From IMG/VR virus record IMGVR_UViG_3300005340_000005: a DNA stretch of 20,000 nt; one strand, 5' to 3'. The stretch is from an uncultured virus (IMG/VR IMGVR_UViG_3300005340_000005) (lineage: Duplodnaviria; Heunggongvirae; Uroviricota; Caudoviricetes). Shown here piece by piece: positions 7,713 through 15,438 of this stretch. Each line of letters opens with the position of its first letter. Position 1 is the stretch's first letter. Under the pieces are notes generated by a model. It did no database searches, was not told where the DNA came from, and saw nothing but the letters and a program-made list of their open reading frames with translations. A program made the position numbers and the translations under genes.

Positions 7713-8110
7713 AAGAGCGGCCAACGGGAATCATTCGAACGCTGCCTTACTTCGGCGCCGGTGGCACTGGCGACGAGGCGACAGACGCACGTGCTCGCGC
7801 GTATCGCCGGATGATGCGCGCCTTCAAAGAGATGGAGAGCGGAGACGGCAAGTACGTCCTTATCGCGTTCGGACAGAAGCCGACCGTTGAGGTCCTGCAT
7901 TGCTACATTCTGGTGGGCGGCGAGATTCGAGTCCGCGCGAACATCGCAGGCTGGGAGCCAGGTGACTCGATCGCAGGATTGCATTGTTGGGATGACACGA
8001 CGCGACATCCGAAGTGGCTTGCGGTGTTGACCGGTCCGGTGGTCTGGCCTGACGAGCCGGTGAAGAGACGCGGGTTCCAAGGGTTCAGATACACGGAGGA
8101 GCTGTTCTGA
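7709..8110 (+). CDS. Hypothetical protein, probable ASCH/PUA-like fold
   Basis: GTGA overlap; beta-rich core (CYILVGGEIRVRA) and C-terminal EPVKRRGFQGFRY, resembling the ASCH PhxGxQG tail. Confidence 0.6.
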   Translation: MKERPTGIIRTLPYFGAGGTGDEATDARARAYRRMMRAFKEMESGDGKYVLIAFGQKPTVEVLHCYILVGGEIRVRANIAGWEPGDSIAGLHCWDDTTRHPKWLAVLTGPVVWPDEPVKRRGFQGFRYTEELF

Positions 8111-8478
8111 TGCCACGCAATATGAGCTTCTCCAAAACTACTCCACAGGTTCGCGCCCGCACAAAAACGGTCACTCGGCGCACCGGTTGGTGGTTCCTGA
8201 AGCCTGGCGAAATCGTGAACGCGATCGAGAAGGGGCAGGGGCTCAAGAAGGGCGAGGAGGTAGTTGTCATCTGTCAGATTCGTATCGTCAGCACGCGGCC
8301 TGAGCCTCTGTCTCGCCTCATAAAAGACACTGCGTATGGATTCGGCGAAACCACTAAGGAGGGATTCAAGGACCATCCTGAATTGCAGTGGCCCGGGGTC
8401 TTCGCTGAGTTCTTCTGCGCCCTCAACGGGTGCGAGTTGGATACAGAAGTCAACCGGATCGAGTTTGAATATGTCTGA
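8110..8478 (+). CDS. ASCH-domain protein
   Basis: MSF…V.ARTKTVTRR.GW..LKPGE…EG F…F..FF…VNRIEFEY pattern; TGATG overlap. Confidence 0.75.
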   Translation: MPRNMSFSKTTPQVRARTKTVTRRTGWWFLKPGEIVNAIEKGQGLKKGEEVVVICQIRIVSTRPEPLSRLIKDTAYGFGETTKEGFKDHPELQWPGVFAEFFCALNGCELDTEVNRIEFEYV

Positions 8479-10033
8479 CAAATCAGCAATCGAATGGACC
8501 GAGGCGACCTGGAATCCGACGCGCGGATGCTCGATGGTCTCGCCGGGCTGCACGAACTGTTATGCCATGAAGCAGGCGCACCGCTTCTCTGGCGACAGCA
8601 GGACTACGAAGGCGGGCACGCGCACTGGGCCTCAGGCGTACTCGGGGCTCACTCGCTTGACCAGCAACGGGCCTGTTTGGACGGGCGAGGTCCGCCTTGT
8701 CGAGGCAAAGCTAGAAGTACCACTGCGTTGGAAGCGGCCGCGCCGAATCTTTGTCAACTCGATGAGCGACCTGTTCCACGAAAGACTGAGCGACGAGCAG
8801 ATTGATCGAGTCTTCGCCGTGATGGCGCTCTGCCCGCAGCATACCTTTCAAGTGCTCACTAAGCGCGCAGAGAGGATGCGCGACTACCTCTGCAGCCGCG
8901 ATACCTGGATTCGTCTGACCGAGCGGATCTTCAGAACCGTCTCGAAGTACAAGCTCGATGAATTCCTTCTTCTGCAATGCACCTTCGAACAAGACGAGCG
9001 ATCCTTTGTCAACATACCGATTTCCAACGCTTGGCTCGGCGTCTCCGTTGAAGACCAGAAGACCGCAGACGAGAGAATCCCCTGGCTCCTCAAGACTCCT
9101 GCCGCTGTTCGGTGGGTGAGCGCGGAACCTTTACTCTCGTCCGTGGATCTGTCAGAATATCTCAAAGGACACACACCGAATGACAAAGGACGATCAGGCA
9201 TTCTTGGCGCTGTTGGCGATCGGCGTATTCTCGATAGACGACAAGGGGCGTATCTGGCGACACCGGCGGCTGATAGCCGGGAGCAAAATCGGGTCGCCCC
9301 CGTTTTGGAAGGATTTGCCCAAGAAACGCCGGGCGGAAACCAGCAGTTCCGGGAAGAGGCGGGAGAACTCCAGCATTTATCTACGAGTGATGTTCACGAC
9401 TGTCGGGGACAAGCGATGGAGCGTGGATGCGCATCGGGTTGTCTGGATGACAGCCAACCAAAAGGATATTCCGCCAGCAATGGAACCCAACCACAAAAAC
9501 GGGAACGGAGCCGACAACAGACCGGAGAATCTCGAACTCCTGACCCATCCGCAGAACACTCTCCACGCGATCCACGAATTGGGCAAGATCGCTCGACCTC
9601 GGAAGATGAACGGCGACAAGCTGACACCCGCTCAAGTGTTAGAGGTTCGCAGTCTCTGCGACCAGAAGGCGATGGCGCGGAGCGAGATAGCGAAGCTGTA
9701 CGGTCTGAGTCTCAATTCAATCGTCAACATAGCCAACCGCAAGACCTGGAAATATATCCCCGAGTTGACTGGGTAATAATCGGCGGAGAATCCGGACCTC
9801 ATTCCAGACCCTTCGATGTCCAGTGGGCGCGAGACACCATCGCGCAATTCCGAGCCGCCGGCGTGCCCGTGTTTGTGAAGCAAATGGGCAGCAAGCCAAC
9901 TACCGACCACCGGACGCGACCCAAAGACGAAGGAGCTCACTGGACGACTCTTCTCAAAGACAAGAAGGGCGGCAACCCGGATGAATGGCCAGCGGATCTA
10001 CGCGTCCGCGAATTTCCGGAGGTCGCAAAGTGA
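8471..10033 (+). CDS. DUF5131 / phage gp37-gp68 family radical-SAM-like protein carrying a ~199-codon insertion
   Basis: Start moved to ATG 8471. Motifs IEWT.ATWNP.RGC, Cx6Cx2C (CSMVSPGCTNC), IFVNSMSDLFH, FQVLTKR, WLGVSVEDQ, SAEPLL, DWVIIGGESG and FVKQMG. Confidence 0.9.
   Translation: MSDKSAIEWTEATWNPTRGCSMVSPGCTNCYAMKQAHRFSGDSRTTKAGTRTGPQAYSGLTRLTSNGPVWTGEVRLVEAKLEVPLRWKRPRRIFVNSMSDLFHERLSDEQIDRVFAVMALCPQHTFQVLTKRAERMRDYLCSRDTWIRLTERIFRTVSKYKLDEFLLLQCTFEQDERSFVNIPISNAWLGVSVEDQKTADERIPWLLKTPAAVRWVSAEPLLSSVDLSEYLKGHTPNDKGRSGILGAVGDRRILDRRQGAYLATPAADSREQNRVAPVLEGFAQETPGGNQQFREEAGELQHLSTSDVHDCRGQAMERGCASGCLDDSQPKGYSASNGTQPQKRERSRQQTGESRTPDPSAEHSPRDPRIGQDRSTSEDERRQADTRSSVRGSQSLRPEGDGAERDSEAVRSESQFNRQHSQPQDLEIYPRVDWVIIGGESGPHSRPFDVQWARDTIAQFRAAGVPVFVKQMGSKPTTDHRTRPKDEGAHWTTLLKDKKGGNPDEWPADLRVREFPEVAK
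9146..9776 (+). mobile_element. Putative homing insertion element inside the DUF5131 gene (dual-coding)
   Basis: Separates normally near-adjacent motifs EPLL…DL and DWVIIGGESG. Bounded by degenerate in-frame direct repeats 9146-9163 and 9743-9760 (12/18 identical, 597 bp apart). Almost entirely occupied by an HNH ORF. Confidence 0.7.
9180..9776 (+). CDS. HNH homing-type endonuclease with C-terminal HTH, nested in the +1 frame
   Basis: AHRVVW…IP…NHKNG…DNRPENLE..T…N..HA (HNH_3-like) followed by KLT..QV.EVR…SEIAKLYGLS..SI.NI..RKTW; own AAGGA RBS at 9165-9169. Confidence 0.9.
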   Translation: MTKDDQAFLALLAIGVFSIDDKGRIWRHRRLIAGSKIGSPPFWKDLPKKRRAETSSSGKRRENSSIYLRVMFTTVGDKRWSVDAHRVVWMTANQKDIPPAMEPNHKNGNGADNRPENLELLTHPQNTLHAIHELGKIARPRKMNGDKLTPAQVLEVRSLCDQKAMARSEIAKLYGLSLNSIVNIANRKTWKYIPELTG

Positions 10034-10485
10034 ACCACAAACAACGTGTGGCGCTCGAGAATCACTGCCGCTTCGCTTTTGAGACGATGAACCCCGCGTT
10101 CCATCACCTGAGCGACGAAGGCTACAGTCTGATCATCACCGTCAATTCCGGTTATGAGTGAATCGAAGAAGGTTACGGCGGGCCAGTTTGGCACGCGAGC
10201 GCATCGAGCGGTTTGATCCAGATTCACAGTCGAATTCTCAGAGGCGTTGTCCATCACGCTCTGGAGGGTGTGGGCCTTCCACTATTGGGCGAGTGGGAAG
10301 AATGGACGGGCAAAGCATTCCATCTTCGTCGACGGCTTCGGCGCACGGAGGAAGAGATCATCGGTGCTGCGTGCGACTTGAGAGGAACTCCTGAAGCAAA
10401 GAGGCGCTATCAAGCTTCACTTTGGTTCTTGCCACCAGCCGGGTTGGAAGTGGCACTGCAAGAAATGTCGGAGGTCGCACGTTGA
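10030..10485 (+). pseudogene. 151-codon gene interrupted by one in-frame TGA (10159-10161); nonsense mutation or recoding
   Basis: GGAGG RBS and GTGA overlap at 10030. The same frame continues past the TGA (…TVNSGYE*IEEGYGGPVWHASAS…) into track ORF 10213-10485, which couples to the next gene. Confidence 0.65.
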
Positions 10486-11687
10486 CCAAGCAAGGAAACA
10501 TCTTCGACGACGTCCGAATGAAGCTCCCAGAGGCGATCGACCTTACTGTCGAGTCACTCAAGGCCTATGGTCTGAAGTATCGGCACTGGGCCATGGCCTT
10601 CTCTGGCGGCAAGGACTCGTCGGCGCTGGTTTCCTTGGTTGCTGTCCTGATCGAACAGGAACGGATTCCCGCTCCCGAAAGCCTCACGGTCTTCTACGCG
10701 GACACGCGCCAGGAGCTGCCACCGCTCTGGGTCTCAGCGATGGGCATTATGGACGCCCTGGGCGAGCGCGGCATTGAGACTCACGTCGTTCTGCCTCCGA
10801 TGGACAAACGCTATTTCGTGTACATCCTCGGTCGAGGAGTTCCTCCACCAAACAACAACACGCTTCGATGGTGCACGCGACAAATCAAAGTTGATCCGAT
10901 GGTTGCAGCTCTACGCGGTCAACGTGAACGCGCCGGCGAGAAACTCTTGATGCTGACCGGCGTTCGAGTCGGAGAGTCGGCCGCTCGAGATCAGAGGATC
11001 GCTCTCTCGTGCTCGAGAGACGGCGGCGAATGTGGGCAAGGTTGGTTTCAACAGAGCACACCTGAAAGCGTCGCAGATACATTGGCGCCGCTTCTTCACT
11101 GGAGAGTGTGTCACGTCTGGGCGTGGCTGGCCTCGCACGCACCGCTTGAAGGCTTCCCGACTCGGACAGTGGCGACGGTATACGGCGGCGATGAAGCAGA
11201 AGAGATGAACGCGCGGACAGGTTGCATCGGTTGTCCGCTTGCAACGAAAGACACTGCGCTTGACGCAATCCTAAAGCTACCTGAGTGGGCTTACCTCTGC
11301 CCGTTGAAGCGACTGCGGCCGCTCTACCGTGAACTAAGAGAGCCACGGTGGAGACTTCGACAGGCGGGAGCCGAGCGACTCAAGGACGGTTCTATCGCGG
11401 CCAACCCACAGAGGATGGGGCCGCTCACGATGGATGCCCGCCGGCACGGCCTATCAATTGTCCTCGGAGTTCAGGACGAGATCAACGCCGCGGCTCGGGC
11501 CACCGGTAGACCTTTAATCAGTCTCATCAACGACGAAGAGCAATCCCGAATCGAGCAATTGATCGAAGAGAACACCTGGCCAGAGAAGTGGTCGGGTGAC
11601 GAACCGGTTGCCGACGTGATGCTCGAAAAGATCTTCGGCGACGGATCTGCGCAGCCGTTGCTCGGAGAGGACTGGGGGCAGCTATGA
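10482..11687 (+). CDS. PAPS-reductase family PP-loop protein, DndC-like
   Basis: Start moved to TTG 10482 (GGAGG RBS, TTGA overlap). Motifs AFSGGKDS, ADT..E.P, GRG.P.P…RWCT..IK..P, TGVR..ES..R, APL..W…VW..L and RTGCIGC. Confidence 0.85.
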   Translation: MTKQGNIFDDVRMKLPEAIDLTVESLKAYGLKYRHWAMAFSGGKDSSALVSLVAVLIEQERIPAPESLTVFYADTRQELPPLWVSAMGIMDALGERGIETHVVLPPMDKRYFVYILGRGVPPPNNNTLRWCTRQIKVDPMVAALRGQRERAGEKLLMLTGVRVGESAARDQRIALSCSRDGGECGQGWFQQSTPESVADTLAPLLHWRVCHVWAWLASHAPLEGFPTRTVATVYGGDEAEEMNARTGCIGCPLATKDTALDAILKLPEWAYLCPLKRLRPLYRELREPRWRLRQAGAERLKDGSIAANPQRMGPLTMDARRHGLSIVLGVQDEINAAARATGRPLISLINDEEQSRIEQLIEENTWPEKWSGDEPVADVMLEKIFGDGSAQPLLGEDWGQL

Positions 11688-12771: not shown

Positions 12772-15438
12772 ATGCGTCGAGATAACAAACGCCAGAAGAA
12801 GATTGCGACTGACGACTATCAGGAGTTCTTGCGCAACAAGATCAACCTGGAGCACGAGTCTGGCTTTGTTGTCTCCGATGAGGATATTAACCCTGTCCTG
12901 ATGCCTCACCAGAGGGACGGGGTCAGATGGGGGCTACGCGGCGGTCAGCGAGCGCTGTTCGAGGCCTTTGGACTCGGCAAGAGTGTTCAGCAGCTCGAGA
13001 TCTGCAGGCTCGTCCTGAAGCATTTGGGTATCGGCCGGGCCCTAATCGTTACCCCTCTCGGCGTGCGCCAGGAATTCAAGCACGACGCGGTTGAGCTCCT
13101 CGGCTGGGACCAGGCGCCGACCTTCGTTCGGTTCAGCGAAGAAGTACTCGCGGCCGATGCCGTCAACATCTTTTTGACCAACTATGAATCGATCAGAGAT
13201 GGTCGCTTGGACGTCAATCTCTTCGATTGCATTAGTCTCGATGAGGCGAGCTGCTTGCGCGGCTTCGGCGGGACGAAGACCTTCCGGGAGTTTATGCGAC
13301 TCTTCGAAGGGAACCAGAAGCTGAAGTATCGCTTCGTTGCAACTGCTACTCCCTCACCGAACGACTACATTGAACTACTGGCCTATGCCGCATTCCTCGA
13401 GATCTCCGATGTCTCGGCCGCGAAGACTCGCTTCTTCAAACGCGACTCCACCAAAGCTGATCACCTGACTATTCATCCGCACAAAACCAGAGAGTTTTGG
13501 TTGTGGGTTTCGACCTGGGCGCTCTTCCTGCAGTCGCCGGCGGATCTCGGTTATGACGCCACCGGCTACGATCTCCCTGAACTCGAGGTTGTCTATCACG
13601 AGGTTAACGTTGATCACACGACCGCGCTCCCAGAACCTGACGGCCAATACCGAATGTATCGCGACTCCACTCACGGGGTCGTAGAAGCGGCCAGAGAGAA
13701 GCGAGATACATTGCCGCAGCGTGTTGCGAAGATGCAAGAGATCCTGGCTGAGAGTCCGGATGATCATTTCCTGCTCTGGCACGATCTGGAGGATGAGCGG
13801 CGCGCAATCGAGAAAGCTGTCCCATCGGCCGTCACGGTTTACGGGACACAGGACCTCGACGAAAGAGAACGCGCGGTAATCGACTTCAGCGAGGGGCGTA
13901 CTAAATATCTGGCTGGCAAGCCCGTCCTCGTTGGCTCAGGTTGCAACTTTCAATACCACTGCCACAGGGCAATCTTTGTTGGCATCGGTTTCAAGTTCAA
14001 TGACTTCATCCAGGCCTGCCATCGGATCCGGCGATACCTTCAGCCACATCGGGTAAGAATCGACATCATATACGCAGAGAGCGAGCGATCGGTCCTTCAG
14101 ACTCTTCAACGCAAGTGGGCGCAGCACGAAGAGATGTGCAAGACGATGACCGACATCATTCGTGAATACGGGCTCTCTCAGGAAGCGATGATGAAAGAGC
14201 TCACCCGCGGCTTCGGCGTCGAGCGAGTGGAGATCAAGGGCCCGAACCACACGATCGTAAACAACGACAGCATTCTTGAGTGCCGGGAGATGGAGAGCAA
14301 CAGCGTTCATCTGATTCTGACCTCGATACCGTTCTCCACACAGTACGAGTACTCGCCGAACTATGCCGACCTGGGCCACTCTGATGACAACGAGCACTTT
14401 TTCGAGCAGATGGATTTCTTGACGCCGAATCTGTTCAGAGTGCTTCAGCCCGGGCGGCTGGCTGCGATCCACGTCAAAGACCGAATCGTACCAGGTGGAG
14501 TCAATGGTCTCGGCTTCCAGACCGTCTACCCTTTCCACATCGATTGCGTTCAGCACTACCAGAAGCACGGCTTCGCCTACCTGGGGATGAAGACGATCGT
14601 CACCGATGTTGTGCGAGAGAACAAGCAGACCTATCGGCTCGGCTGGACAGAGCAGTGCAAGGACGGTTCCAAGATGGGAGTGGGTATGCCGGAATATCTA
14701 CTGATCTTCCGCAAGCCTCCCTCAGATGATGCAAACGCTTATGCAGATGTTCCGGTTGTGAAGTTCAAGACGCGCTATTCGAGAAGCAGGTGGCAAGTCG
14801 ACGCGCACGGCTTCAGTCGATCGAGCGGCAACCGCCTTCTCTCCCCAGAGGACCTGAAGGATATTCCGCATCACGCGATCTTCAAACTGTTTCGGCGCCA
14901 CTCGCTCGAGAATGTTTACGACTTCGAAGAGCACGTCAGGCTTGGAGAGTCACTGGAGACGTGCGGCCAATGTGATCATATCCACACCGCATCGAAAGGC
15001 TCCTGTGAGTGCGGCTGCAAAGGCAGCGGCCGGCTGCCTACCGACTTTATGTTGCTCCAGCCTCAATCCTGGTCGCCAGAGGTCTGGACCGACATCACGA
15101 GAATGCGAACGCTCAACGGAGCTCAGAGCGCGAAGGGCAAGGTGATGCACCTTTGCCCTATGCAATTCGACCTCTGCGACCGGGCGATCACCCAGTACAC
15201 GATGCCTGGCGAGACGGTACTGGATCCCTTTGGCGGCCTGATGTCGGTTCCATATCGAGCGATCAAACTCAGACGCAAAGGAATTGGGATCGAGCTGAGC
15301 CCGGGTTACTTCCTCGACGGAGCTGCTTACTGCGCCGCGGCCGAGCAGGAGATTGCAATACCGACCCTGTTTGATCTCGGCGATCCGGATGAAGAGGAAG
15401 ATGCAATCGCCCAGGCAGCCGTGGCGGTTGGAGACTGA
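12772..15438 (+). CDS. SNF2-like SF2 helicase fused to a beta-class N4/N6 DNA methyltransferase
   Basis: Helicase motifs FGLGKS, LDEAS, ATATP and QA.HR..R. MTase motif IV TSIPF precedes motif I VLDPFGG, with H.CP before it and GIEL after it. Confidence 0.9.
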   Translation: MRRDNKRQKKIATDDYQEFLRNKINLEHESGFVVSDEDINPVLMPHQRDGVRWGLRGGQRALFEAFGLGKSVQQLEICRLVLKHLGIGRALIVTPLGVRQEFKHDAVELLGWDQAPTFVRFSEEVLAADAVNIFLTNYESIRDGRLDVNLFDCISLDEASCLRGFGGTKTFREFMRLFEGNQKLKYRFVATATPSPNDYIELLAYAAFLEISDVSAAKTRFFKRDSTKADHLTIHPHKTREFWLWVSTWALFLQSPADLGYDATGYDLPELEVVYHEVNVDHTTALPEPDGQYRMYRDSTHGVVEAAREKRDTLPQRVAKMQEILAESPDDHFLLWHDLEDERRAIEKAVPSAVTVYGTQDLDERERAVIDFSEGRTKYLAGKPVLVGSGCNFQYHCHRAIFVGIGFKFNDFIQACHRIRRYLQPHRVRIDIIYAESERSVLQTLQRKWAQHEEMCKTMTDIIREYGLSQEAMMKELTRGFGVERVEIKGPNHTIVNNDSILECREMESNSVHLILTSIPFSTQYEYSPNYADLGHSDDNEHFFEQMDFLTPNLFRVLQPGRLAAIHVKDRIVPGGVNGLGFQTVYPFHIDCVQHYQKHGFAYLGMKTIVTDVVRENKQTYRLGWTEQCKDGSKMGVGMPEYLLIFRKPPSDDANAYADVPVVKFKTRYSRSRWQVDAHGFSRSSGNRLLSPEDLKDIPHHAIFKLFRRHSLENVYDFEEHVRLGESLETCGQCDHIHTASKGSCECGCKGSGRLPTDFMLLQPQSWSPEVWTDITRMRTLNGAQSAKGKVMHLCPMQFDLCDRAITQYTMPGETVLDPFGGLMSVPYRAIKLRRKGIGIELSPGYFLDGAAYCAAAEQEIAIPTLFDLGDPDEEEDAIAQAAVAVGD

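What the first reader, a model, noticed from the sequence alone, without database searches (positions are those of the whole stretch)
9146..9779. Hidden HNH endonuclease nested out-of-frame inside a stop-free in-frame insertion of a DUF5131 radical-SAM-like gene
Seen: a complete 198-aa HNH+HTH ORF with its own RBS lies in the +1 frame entirely inside the 520-aa DUF5131 ORF. Its TAA TAA stops are embedded in the codons of the conserved DWVIIGGE motif. The host frame has no stop across the insert and reads as S/Q/R/P/D/G-rich, probably disordered sequence. By hand count about 26 HNH codons end in T and about 30% begin with AA/AG/GA, so about 8 host-frame stops are expected and none occur (roughly 1e-4), which implies selection to keep the host frame open. 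There is no non-coding flank for a group I intron core and no intein termini (no Cys/Ser…His-Asn). Established: the EPLL…DL and DWVIxGGESG motifs are usually separated by a short, variable loop in this family. Inference: a non-splicing homing element tolerated as a disordered loop in the host enzyme. From memory, a similar arrangement (the 'ShiLan' insertion) was described in actinobacteriophage methylases; I do not know of one in DUF5131, and this needs a literature check.
Basis: partly seen in the sequence, partly recalled or inferred. Interest (0 to 1): 0.92.

Follow-up and report, generated by a model that had tools for sequence, protein, structure and literature searches.

The report
Hidden HNH gene inside DUF5131
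A selfish DNA-cutting enzyme gene is written one base out of frame inside a soil phage's radical-SAM-family gene, and selection keeps the host gene's own frame free of stop codons, so the host protein is most likely made whole with a floppy 200-residue loop rather than rescued by splicing.

Summary
A 198-aa HNH_3 ORF (9180-9776) lies in the +1 frame inside a 520-aa DUF5131 ORF (8471-10033). The host frame has no stop across it; shuffles expect 7-10.

Relatives were fetched through the HNH protein, so the sample is blind to the host frame. Of 43 HNH lineages (90% clusters), 42 are nested at the same DUF5131 position, in the same +1 frame, with zero host-frame stops (2-10 expected). The one free-standing member has 8, and nine more distant free-standing relatives have 4-29.

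Only the HNH frame shows purifying selection. The host-frame peptide is unconserved and predicted disordered. The insert is little more than the ORF, and no intron or intein signature was found.

Best reading: an I-HmuI-like homing endonuclease gene that is translated through rather than spliced. This is the lifestyle published in 2025 for the ShiLan domain of actinophage methylases, here in a new host gene. Mobility is suggested by a patchy distribution, but AU tests did not prove it. Splicing was not tested experimentally.

This scan has reported the same arrangement before on other DNA.

The parts
8471..10033 (+). Host gene: DUF5131 (phage Gp37/Gp68, radical-SAM superfamily subgroup). The 520-aa ORF reads straight through the insert.
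   Evidence: Pfam PF07505 E 4.9e-77 in two stretches, and phrog_2045 E 6.9e-93. Empty-site homologs of 300-350 aa are up to 63% identical.
8471..9163 (+). N-terminal host part, running through the conserved VSAEPLL...DLSEYL. It contains the invariant Cys20, Cys27 and Cys30.
   Evidence: It matches positions 1-216 of a profile built from 69 insert-free DUF5131 proteins. pLDDT is mostly above 90. The invariant columns are listed.
9164..9766 (+). Insert of about 603 nt (3n). The boundaries are approximate because insert-free homologs have a variable 15-40 aa loop here. In the host frame it is an S/R/G/E/Q/D/P-rich peptide.
   Evidence: hmmalign places 184 extra residues after profile column 219. 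There are 0 host-frame stops against 7-10 expected. Residues 234-426 have pLDDT below 50.
9165..9169 (+). Shine-Dalgarno-like AAGGA, 10 nt upstream of the HNH ATG.
   Evidence: Read from the sequence. 33 of 39 nested relatives with an intact 5' end have GGAG, GAGG or AGGA within -18..-4 of their start codon.
9180..9779 (+). Nested HNH homing-endonuclease ORF (198 aa) in frame host+1. It ends in TAA TAA (9774-9779).
   Evidence: HNH_3 E 3.8e-12 and phrog_59 E 5.9e-24. 31 called relatives are 39-72% identical. AF2 mean pLDDT is 87.6. I-HmuI (1U3E) is the best match by sequence profile (E 9.4e-7) and by fold (E 3.1e-4, prob 1.00).
9429..9560 (+). HNH_3 catalytic core (residues 84-127). H85, H105 and N117 are invariant across relatives, as is H129 just after the core.
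   Evidence: Pfam stretch 84-127. Invariant columns of alignment A1. Alignment to I-HmuI.
9594..9719 (+). C-terminal helix-turn-helix DNA-binding module of the endonuclease (residues about 139-180).
   Evidence: The window's own match is weak (HTH_7, E 0.006). The AF2 model has three helices at 150-185. Nested and free-standing relatives hit HTH_3 or HTH_38.
9767..10033 (+). C-terminal host part, starting at DWVIIGGESGP. It is in the same frame as the N-terminal part.
   Evidence: It matches profile positions 217-313. G438 and K470 are invariant, and GGESGP...R...W...QC...F.KQ.G is nearly invariant, in insert-bearing and empty alleles alike. pLDDT is mostly 86-96 in blocks of ten residues, with one dip to 62.

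Best explanation
The insert is a homing-endonuclease gene of the I-HmuI type. It has an N-terminal beta domain, an HNH_3 nuclease core and a C-terminal HTH. It has settled in a surface connection of a phage DUF5131 enzyme, between the strand ...VSAEPLL/DL..WL and the strand DWVIVGGESG.

It is expressed from its own start codon, in most lineages with its own Shine-Dalgarno site, in the +1 frame of the host mRNA. It is not removed by RNA or protein splicing. Instead the element is a multiple of three bases long and carries no stop in the host frame. Ribosomes translating DUF5131 therefore read through it and make the full enzyme with a roughly 200-residue, sequence-unconstrained, disordered loop.

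The frame relation makes this cheap. With the host frame at offset 2 of the HNH codons, a host stop needs an HNH codon ending in T followed by one starting with AA, AG or GA. NNT and NNC are always synonymous, so every such stop can be removed without changing the endonuclease.

Shown here: the nesting, the selection for an open host frame, purifying selection on the HNH frame only, purifying selection on the host part downstream of the insert, the lack of space or signatures for an intron or intein, and predicted disorder of the read-through peptide.

Inferred, not shown: that the endonuclease cuts insert-free DUF5131 alleles and spreads by homing, and that the loop-bearing enzyme is active.
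For: Nesting and selection. Loci were fetched with the HNH alignment, which is blind to the host frame. Only the best 80 of 425 metagenome matches and 80 of 167 viral matches were kept, plus 29 genome loci. Of 56 loci with a strong HNH-family match, 55 have DUF5131 flanks in frame HNH-1 and 0 host-frame stops, while the third frame has 4-23 stops. After clustering at 90% aa identity, 42 of 43 lineages are nested with 0 stops, against 2.0-10.3 expected from synonymous shuffles. The third frame matches expectation. Pooled over the 42 lineages, 0 of 2,088 codons preceding an AA/AG/GA codon end in T, against 18.4% (1,052 of 5,729) elsewhere.

Natural controls. L018 is free-standing, beside a UDG/DNA-polymerase gene, yet branches inside the nested clade (SH-aLRT 95-98). 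It has 8 stops against 8.5-8.7 expected. Nine more distant free-standing relatives have 4-29 stops.

Which frame is constrained. HNH codon positions 1, 2 and 3 vary 0.44, 0.35 and 0.62. Pairwise aa identity is 46.7% in the HNH frame, 23.2% in the host frame and 26.2% in the third frame.

The host part downstream is still under purifying selection in insert-bearing pairs: 75-87% aa identity, while four-fold sites are saturated at 36-45%. Its motif residues are invariant.

Anatomy. All inserts sit after profile column 219. 39 of 39 relatives start with ATG or GTG, and 33 of 39 have an SD core. In L027, L033, L041, L042 and L162 the ATG abuts the host WL codons, and the stop overlaps the codons around W of DWVIVGG.

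No RNA family was found in the window (E-value mode) or in 20 relatives totalling 87 kb.

Structure. Host flanks have pLDDT above 90 and the insert below 50. The HNH model has pLDDT 87.6, with I-HmuI as top hit.

A second, unrelated HNH lineage nested at another DUF5131 site (L034:1519-1989, also in the +1 frame) also has 0 host stops against 6.1 expected.

Precedent: the ShiLan domain (PMC11855218).
Against: There is no experimental evidence on splicing or on either protein product.

The one RNA library that holds the sequence (run X12) has only two contigs, 9174-9362 and 9459-9680. Both lie inside the insert and neither crosses a junction. The tool warns that DNA can be present in such libraries.

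Mobility is not proven. The host tree needs at least 10 changes of insert presence (8 forced by well-supported branches). However, an AU test does not reject all 37 insert-bearing hosts being one clade (delta lnL 91.7, p 0.141). It also does not reject the hosts of the two closest HNHs tested being sisters (p 0.37).

Four-fold sites are saturated in the insert and in the flanks, so no recent transfer could be dated. Higher identity in the near flanks (74-83% against 55-74% in control pairs) may reflect conserved motifs rather than co-conversion.

Six of 39 lineages have no SD core before the start codon, so how they initiate is open.
Confidence: 0.8

Rival explanations
1. Cryptic self-splicing element. 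The segment is removed after transcription (an unrecognised ribozyme embedded in the coding sequence) or after translation (an atypical intein), and the open host frame is incidental or serves another purpose.
For: Splicing was not tested. RNA-library contigs cover only the interior of the insert, which an excised intron could also explain. [quoted passage not shown]
Against: If the segment were spliced at the RNA level, there would be no reason for 42 of 42 lineages to avoid all host-frame stops.

The insert is the ORF plus 0-40 nt, which leaves no room for a ribozyme core. Rfam found nothing in the window or in 20 relatives.

For an intein: the host-frame peptide has no conserved blocks (23% identity, equal to the non-coding frame). 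Residue +1 is W, D, V, I or L rather than C, S or T. The segment has pLDDT below 50 with no Hint-like structure.
Confidence: 0.05
2. Domesticated or fixed insertion. An old HNH insertion is no longer mobile and is inherited vertically with DUF5131. The nuclease, or the loop, may have been co-opted for a phage function.
For: AU tests do not reject a single clade of insert-bearing hosts (p 0.141). All sampled copies are anciently diverged, with four-fold sites saturated. All site-219 copies form one HNH clade in one frame, consistent with a single origin. The HNH frame is under purifying selection across that whole depth.
Against: The window's host gene sits in a well-supported clade of 8 with 7 insert-free genes, and its best match is an empty allele (63%, P0002).

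At least 10 gains or losses are needed on two trees. HNH and host identities barely correlate (Spearman 0.15 over 528 pairs); HNH pairs at 81-88% identity sit in hosts that are 53-63% identical.

One member has moved to a different genomic context (L018). The host-frame loop is not conserved, so the loop itself is not co-opted.
Confidence: 0.1
3. The endonuclease is not made from its own start codon. It is made by a programmed +1 frameshift from the host frame, giving an N-terminal DUF5131-HNH fusion.
For: Six of 39 lineages lack an SD core, and their ATG abuts the host WL codons. The host and HNH frames differ by +1.
Against: 39 of 39 lineages keep ATG or GTG exactly at position 1 of the HNH family, and 33 of 39 keep an SD. 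The free-standing relatives start at the same position. No conserved slippery motif was looked for or seen.
Confidence: 0.04
4. Chance or compositional artefact: a long alternative open frame in GC-rich DNA.
For: The window is 55-61% G+C, and such DNA has long spurious ORFs.
Against: 0 of 30,000 synonymous shuffles are stop-free. The third frame and the minus frames of the same DNA carry 3-14 stops. The result is replicated in 42 lineages, with free-standing controls that carry 4-29 stops.
Confidence: 0.005

Closest known systems
ShiLan domain, and the Pacc40 gp60 insertion: hidden out-of-frame HNH endonuclease insertions in actinobacteriophage DNA methylases (Arsenault, Gosselin & Gogarten, Genes 2025, PMC11855218; earlier PMC9957025)
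   Same: An HNH endonuclease ORF of about 195-200 aa lies out of frame inside a conserved host gene. The host frame has no stop. The insert is barely larger than the ORF. The stop codon sits at the very end of the insert. No intron or intein signature is found. The read-through peptide is predicted to be a loop. I-HmuI is the best structural match (paper passages; here).
   Different: The host gene here is DUF5131, not a methylase, and the source is soil and other metagenome phages rather than mycobacteriophages. The HNH is in frame +1 here, against the 'third frame' reported in the paper. It has an ATG with SD in most copies, against a GTG with no detectable RBS. Its architecture is HNH plus a C-terminal HTH, against HNH flanked by zinc fingers. 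Homology between the two HNHs was not tested, because no ShiLan sequence was fetched. DUF5131 is not named in the paper.
I-HmuI, the intron-encoded HNH homing endonuclease of Bacillus phage SPO1 (PDB 1U3E)
   Same: It is the best sequence-profile hit (E 9.4e-7) and the best fold hit (E 3.1e-4, prob 1.00, 184 aligned columns). It shares the modular layout of beta domain, HNH core and C-terminal helical DNA-binding module.
   Different: I-HmuI is carried by a self-splicing group I intron (recalled). Here there is no intron. Sequence identity is only 14%.
Free-standing phage HNH homing endonuclease genes placed next to their target gene
   Same: More distant relatives of this HNH sit immediately downstream of an intact, insert-free DUF5131 gene (L049, L077, L110). 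The ShiLan paper describes the same adjacency for Tiff81 and Sashimi.
   Different: Those copies lie between genes and carry 4-12 stops in the -1 frame. The window's copy is inside the gene and is read through.
[quoted passage not shown]
   Same: A homing endonuclease is encoded in an alternative frame of a segment that the host frame reads through (keyword passages read).
   Different: In those cases protein-splicing domains flank the segment and remove it. Here no splicing domain exists.

Membership tests
ShiLan-type hidden (out-of-frame, translated-through) HNH insertion | Host reading frame free of stops across the whole insert | tested here: met
   0 stops against 7-10 expected in the window. 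42 of 42 nested lineages have 0 stops.
ShiLan-type hidden (out-of-frame, translated-through) HNH insertion | A complete HNH endonuclease ORF in an alternative frame that fills nearly the whole insert | tested here: met
   ORF 9180-9776 matches HNH_3 at E 3.8e-12.
ShiLan-type hidden (out-of-frame, translated-through) HNH insertion | No detectable self-splicing intron or intein features | tested here: met
   Rfam found nothing. The host-frame peptide has no conserved blocks. There is no C/S/T at +1. The insert has pLDDT below 50. This is computational only.
ShiLan-type hidden (out-of-frame, translated-through) HNH insertion | Disjunct distribution among host alleles, indicating homing | tested here: inconclusive
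   At least 10 changes are needed on the host trees. However, AU tests do not reject one clade (p 0.141 and 0.37).
ShiLan-type hidden (out-of-frame, translated-through) HNH insertion | Sequence homology to the ShiLan HNH, or the same frame relation | not tested
   No ShiLan sequence was fetched. The paper reports the 'third frame', whereas here the frame is +1, so the frame relation appears to differ.
HNH homing endonuclease (I-HmuI-like, Pfam HNH_3) | HNH (beta-beta-alpha-metal) motif with its His and Asn residues intact | tested here: met
   H85, H105, N117 and H129 are invariant in 31 relatives. They align to the I-HmuI core.
HNH homing endonuclease (I-HmuI-like, Pfam HNH_3) | Fold similarity to a solved homing endonuclease | tested here: met
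   The top Foldseek hit is 1U3E, E 3.1e-4, prob 1.00. The TM-score is low (0.38-0.43), as expected for an elongated multi-domain protein.
HNH homing endonuclease (I-HmuI-like, Pfam HNH_3) | Site-specific cleavage of the insert-free allele, and gene conversion | not testable with these tools
   This needs a biochemical assay or a phage cross.
Group I intron carrying a homing endonuclease ORF | Ribozyme core (P3-P9) flanking or surrounding the ORF | tested here: not met
   The insert is the ORF plus 0-40 nt. No Rfam intron match was found, even in E-value mode.
Intein | Hint-domain blocks, a Cys/Ser N-terminal residue, a His-Asn C-terminus, and Cys/Ser/Thr at +1 | tested here: not met
   The host-frame sequences at both junctions in 37-39 lineages show none of these. 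Host-frame identity is 23%, equal to the non-coding frame.
DUF5131 (PF07505; radical-SAM superfamily subgroup per RadicalSAM.org, PMC9477430, one passage read) | Pfam match above the curated cut-off on both sides of the insert, and conserved Cys triad | tested here: met
   259 bits against a cut-off of 28.9. C20, C27 and C30 are invariant. There is weak fold resemblance to spore photoproduct lyase (E 0.035, prob 0.89).

The most novel reading that the evidence does not exclude
Being translated through is a general third way, beside introns and inteins, for homing endonuclease genes to live inside essential or useful genes. It is a heritable property of the element itself.

In DUF5131 it arose at least twice, at two sites and from two separate HNH lineages, both in the +1 frame. 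The genetic code explains the choice of frame: in that frame every host stop can be erased by a synonymous T-to-C change.

At least 91 clusters (50% identity) of DUF5131 proteins carry the site-219 insert. That would make this the largest known family of such elements, and a natural system for measuring how much unstructured insertion an enzyme tolerates.
Probability: 0.55. Interest if true: 0.65.

Novelty: new member of a known kind. Interest (0 to 1): 0.55.

Why it matters
Homing endonuclease genes are usually thought to survive inside genes only by being spliced out, as introns or inteins. The 2025 ShiLan work proposed a splicing-free alternative, from about ten phages and without a statistical test of the open frame.

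This DUF5131 family supplies that test. It has 42 independent lineages with zero host-frame stops. It has a built-in control, since members outside the gene carry the expected number of stops. It also offers a simple code-based reason why the +1 arrangement costs the endonuclease nothing.

There are practical consequences too.
- Gene callers choose one frame or the other. The window's 520-aa product was absent from the protein collection while its nested HNH was present.
- As a result, either the endonuclease or the full-length enzyme is systematically missing from annotations, and DUF5131 proteins with unexplained 'disordered domains' are artefacts of a hidden gene.
- The insertion point marks a position where this radical-SAM-family fold tolerates about 200 extra residues.

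Tried and rejected
- Locus scans with the single HNH protein found nothing in viral or genome contigs. The alignment-based scans worked.
- A protein search restricted to the host-frame insert (residues 222-436) scored nothing at E <= 0.001. This fits an unconserved, low-complexity peptide.
- No whole genome is held for the window, so nothing genome-wide was done.
- tblastn of the HNH against 50,697 isolated-phage records gave only free-standing HNH genes at <= 35% identity among the 30 records listed. No cultured phage with this element was identified.
- Co-conversion: near-flank nucleotide identity is higher in pairs with similar HNHs (74-83% against 55-74%), but the same windows hold the most conserved host motifs, so I do not count it as evidence.
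- Dating by four-fold sites: these are saturated everywhere (31-58%), so they are uninformative.
- AU tests neither rejected one clade of all insert-bearing hosts (p 0.141) nor a sister relation of the L162 and L027 hosts (p 0.37).
- RNA evidence: one metatranscriptome run holds two contigs inside the insert only. There was no junction and no joint, and DNA carry-over is possible. Parts without cover say nothing.
- Hydrophobicity of the read-through peptide is only slightly below the shuffles (17.0% against 18.0%, mean z -1.0, lower in 34 of 42). This is too weak to claim selection for disorder.
- The Foldseek search of the host model gave only weak radical-SAM-type hits.
- One literature search failed on term format and was not repeated.
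Full report
WHAT IS THERE

The window carries a 520-aa ORF (ATG 8471 to stop at 10033, + strand). It matches Pfam DUF5131 (PF07505) at E 4.9e-77, but in two stretches separated by about 200 residues that match nothing. Inside that gap, in the +1 frame, lies a complete 198-aa ORF (9180-9776, followed by a second TAA at 9777-9779). This ORF matches HNH_3 (E 3.8e-12) and the HNH endonuclease family phrog_59 (E 5.9e-24).

An AAGGA sits 10 nt before its ATG. Its two stop codons lie inside the host codons GTA ATA ATC, which encode V-I-I of DWVIIGGE.

26 HNH codons end in T, and 59 of 199 begin with AA, AG or GA. Across 9146-9779 the host frame has no stop, the third + frame has 14, and the minus frames have 3-4.

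IS THE OPEN FRAME MORE THAN CHANCE?

Yes. Synonymous shuffling of the HNH ORF gives a mean of 7.1 host-frame stops, and none of 30,000 shuffles is stop-free. Recoding with the window's own codon usage gives 9.6 stops, again 0 of 30,000. Shuffling codon order gives 7.7 stops, with 2 of 30,000 stop-free. Ten other genes of the window have 3.7-12.1 stops per 198 codons in the same relative frame.

COMPARATIVE TEST

To avoid ascertainment through the host frame, I collected relatives through the endonuclease.

A protein search with the HNH found 31 called relatives, 39-72% identical. Notably, the collection holds the window's HNH as a called gene, while the 520-aa host product was not among the hits. 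Gene callers take one frame or the other.

The HNH alignment was then used to fetch DNA. This gave 80 metagenome loci (the best of 425 matches), 80 viral loci (the best of 167) and 29 genome loci.

I built a profile from 69 insert-free DUF5131 proteins and ran it over six-frame, stop-to-stop translations. Of 56 loci with a strong HNH-family match, 55 have DUF5131 sequence on one or both sides. In every one of these the DUF5131 flanks are in frame HNH-1, and there are zero stops in that frame across the HNH. The third frame has 4-23 stops.

Clustered at 90% aa identity, this makes 42 nested lineages. All have 0 stops, against 2.0-10.3 expected, and the third frame matches expectation. Pooled, 0 of 2,088 codons that precede an AA/AG/GA codon end in T, against 18.4% of the other codons.

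The 43rd lineage, L018, is free-standing. It lies between an unknown ORF and a UDG/DNA-polymerase-exonuclease gene. It has 8 stops in that frame, against 8.5-8.7 expected. In the HNH tree it branches inside the nested clade (SH-aLRT 95 and 98, quick tree). It therefore looks like an escape, after which the constraint lapsed.

Nine more distant free-standing relatives have 4-29 stops. Four further nested copies outside the 56-locus set all have 0.

WHICH FRAME CODES?

Variability at HNH codon positions 1, 2 and 3 is 0.44, 0.35 and 0.62. This is the signature of purifying selection on the HNH frame.

Pairwise aa identity is 46.7% in the HNH frame and 23.2% in the host frame, which is no more than the non-coding third frame at 26.2%. 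The read-through peptide is therefore selected only to be open, not for its sequence.

The host part downstream of the insert is still constrained in insert-bearing alleles. Its aa identity is 75-87% where four-fold sites are saturated. G438 and K470 are invariant, and the GGESGP...KQ.G motif is nearly invariant, in insert-bearing and empty alleles alike. That makes sense only if the downstream part is translated.

ANATOMY AND SPLICING

All inserts sit after the same profile column, 219. This lies between ...VSAEPLL..DL..WL and DWVIVGGESG, where empty alleles have a variable 15-40-residue connection.

39 of 39 lineages with an intact 5' end start with ATG (33) or GTG (6). 33 of 39 have a GGAG, GAGG or AGGA core within -18..-4.

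In five lineages the ATG directly abuts the host WL codons. The HNH stop always falls within a few codons of the W of DWVIVGG. The insert is therefore the ORF plus 0-40 nt, which leaves no room for a ribozyme core.

Rfam found no intron, either in the window in E-value mode or in 20 related loci totalling 87 kb. No intein features exist. There are no conserved host-frame blocks, and residue +1 is W, D, V, I or L.

AlphaFold2 with a 60-sequence alignment gives pLDDT above 90 for both DUF5131 parts. Residues 234-426 are below 50, with no secondary structure. The HNH frame folds confidently (mean pLDDT 87.6; beta domain, HNH core, three-helix C-terminal module). I-HmuI (1U3E) is its best match by profile (E 9.4e-7) and by fold (E 3.1e-4, prob 1.00).

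WHY THE +1 FRAME?

This is an inference from the standard genetic code. With the host frame at offset 2 of the HNH codons, a host stop needs NNT followed by AA, AG or GA. NNT and NNC are always synonymous, so every stop can be removed without touching the endonuclease.

In the other frame, Met (ATG) followed by an A-initial codon could not be repaired silently.

A second, phylogenetically separate HNH is nested at another DUF5131 site (L034:1519-1989, profile column 149). It is also in the +1 frame and is also stop-free in the host frame (0 against 6.1 expected).

The ShiLan paper reports the 'third frame', so that element seems to use the costlier arrangement. I could not check this on sequence.

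MOBILITY

The evidence is suggestive but not decisive. In a FastTree of 153 DUF5131 proteins (37 with the insert, 116 without), insert presence needs at least 10 changes. Eight of these are forced by well-supported branches, against a shuffle mean of 33. The window's gene lies in a well-supported clade of 8 with 7 empty alleles, and its best match is an empty allele (P0002, 63%). The empty alleles are those most similar to the window's protein, so the sampling around other hosts is uneven.

HNH and host identities barely correlate (Spearman 0.15, 528 pairs). HNH pairs at 81-88% identity sit in hosts that are 53-63% identical.

Against this, AU tests on a 77-row IQ-TREE did not reject all insert-bearing hosts forming one clade (delta lnL 91.7, p 0.141). 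They also did not reject the L162 and L027 hosts being sisters (p 0.37).

Synonymous sites are saturated in the insert and the flanks, so no recent transfer can be shown. The elevated near-flank identity may be due to motif conservation.

PREVALENCE AND CONTEXT

A profile of 24 insert-bearing proteins was searched against 1.84 billion cluster representatives. Among the best 150, 91 have a 150-202-aa insert (median 174) at the same position. 46,993 representatives match at E <= 0.001.

Nested copies occur in IMG/VR viral contigs and in MAG contigs labelled Gemmataceae, Binatia and Clostridia. One sits next to a terminase gene.

The window itself looks like a phage replication and DNA-modification module. 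It carries a DUF3799 PD-(D/E)XK protein, DUF5131, a PAPS-reductase-like protein, an 888-aa N6/N4 methylase and a DnaB helicase. It lies on a 69.7-kb metagenome contig. The same sequence is held by several rhizosphere and soil runs.

One metatranscriptome run holds two contigs, both inside the insert. This is uninformative about splicing.

LITERATURE

The ShiLan domain paper (PMC11855218; abstract, Results, Discussion and keyword passages read) describes the same lifestyle in actinophage methylases.

DUF5131, gp37 and Gp68 do not occur in that paper. No paper in the library holds both 'DUF5131' and 'HNH'. 'ShiLan domain' occurs in two papers only. Supplements were not consulted.

Two preprints describe out-of-frame endonucleases inside inteins (keyword passages only). 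DUF5131 is listed as a radical-SAM superfamily subgroup at RadicalSAM.org (PMC9477430; one passage). This agrees with the weak fold hit to spore photoproduct lyase.

Earlier notes of this scan report the same DUF5131 arrangement on other DNA. They agree with this report but are not independent evidence.

VERDICT

This is a new member, in a new host gene family, of a kind first described in 2025. The evidence for selection on the open host frame is unusually strong. Still to be shown experimentally are the absence of splicing, the two protein products and the homing activity.

Noticed in passing
L034:1236-3002 (same contig as L090): One DUF5131 gene carries two nested +1-frame HNH_3 ORFs. One is at profile column 149 (L034:1519-1989, 156 aa, HNH_3 E 7e-18). 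The other is at column 219 (L034:2143-2724). Both leave the host frame stop-free. The two HNHs belong to different branches of the HNH tree.
   Followed up: partly
L034:1212-1214: The same host gene has an in-frame TGA where homologs have Gly (PRWT-G-xVR). This could be a nonsense mutation, a sequencing error or a recoded codon. It is a single instance, so no conclusion can be drawn.
   Followed up: no
P0116 (481 aa), and P0254, P0269: At the second site (column 149), P0116 carries an HNH_3 domain in frame with DUF5131. P0254 and P0269 have inserts of about 160 aa there with no Pfam match in the host frame. In-frame and out-of-frame solutions may therefore coexist at that site.
   Followed up: partly
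L049:2501-3055, L077:2495-3088, L110:2498-3172: More distant HNH relatives stand free, starting at or within a few bases of the stop of an intact, insert-free DUF5131 gene. They carry 4-12 stops in the -1 frame. This may be the ancestral 'next to the target' arrangement.
   Followed up: partly
L018:1640-2203: A member of the nested HNH clade sits outside DUF5131, between an unknown ORF and a UDG/DNA-polymerase-exonuclease gene, with 8 stops in the former host frame. It looks like an escape from the nested state.
   Followed up: yes
window 10422-11687 and 12772-15438: The genes after DUF5131 are a 421-aa PAPS-reductase-like protein and an 888-aa protein with a C-terminal N6/N4 DNA methylase domain. 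Together they may form a DNA-modification module with DUF5131.
   Followed up: no
window 8110-8478 / 8471: The upstream 122-aa ORF overlaps the DUF5131 start by 8 nt (ATG 8471 lies inside the upstream ORF's last codons). This suggests translational coupling in a tightly packed operon.
   Followed up: no
window 8471-10033 compared with the protein collection: The public protein collection holds the window's nested HNH as a called gene (P0121, seen on 6 contigs). The 520-aa read-through DUF5131 was not among the hits for the same DNA. Either product is systematically missed by gene callers.
   Followed up: partly
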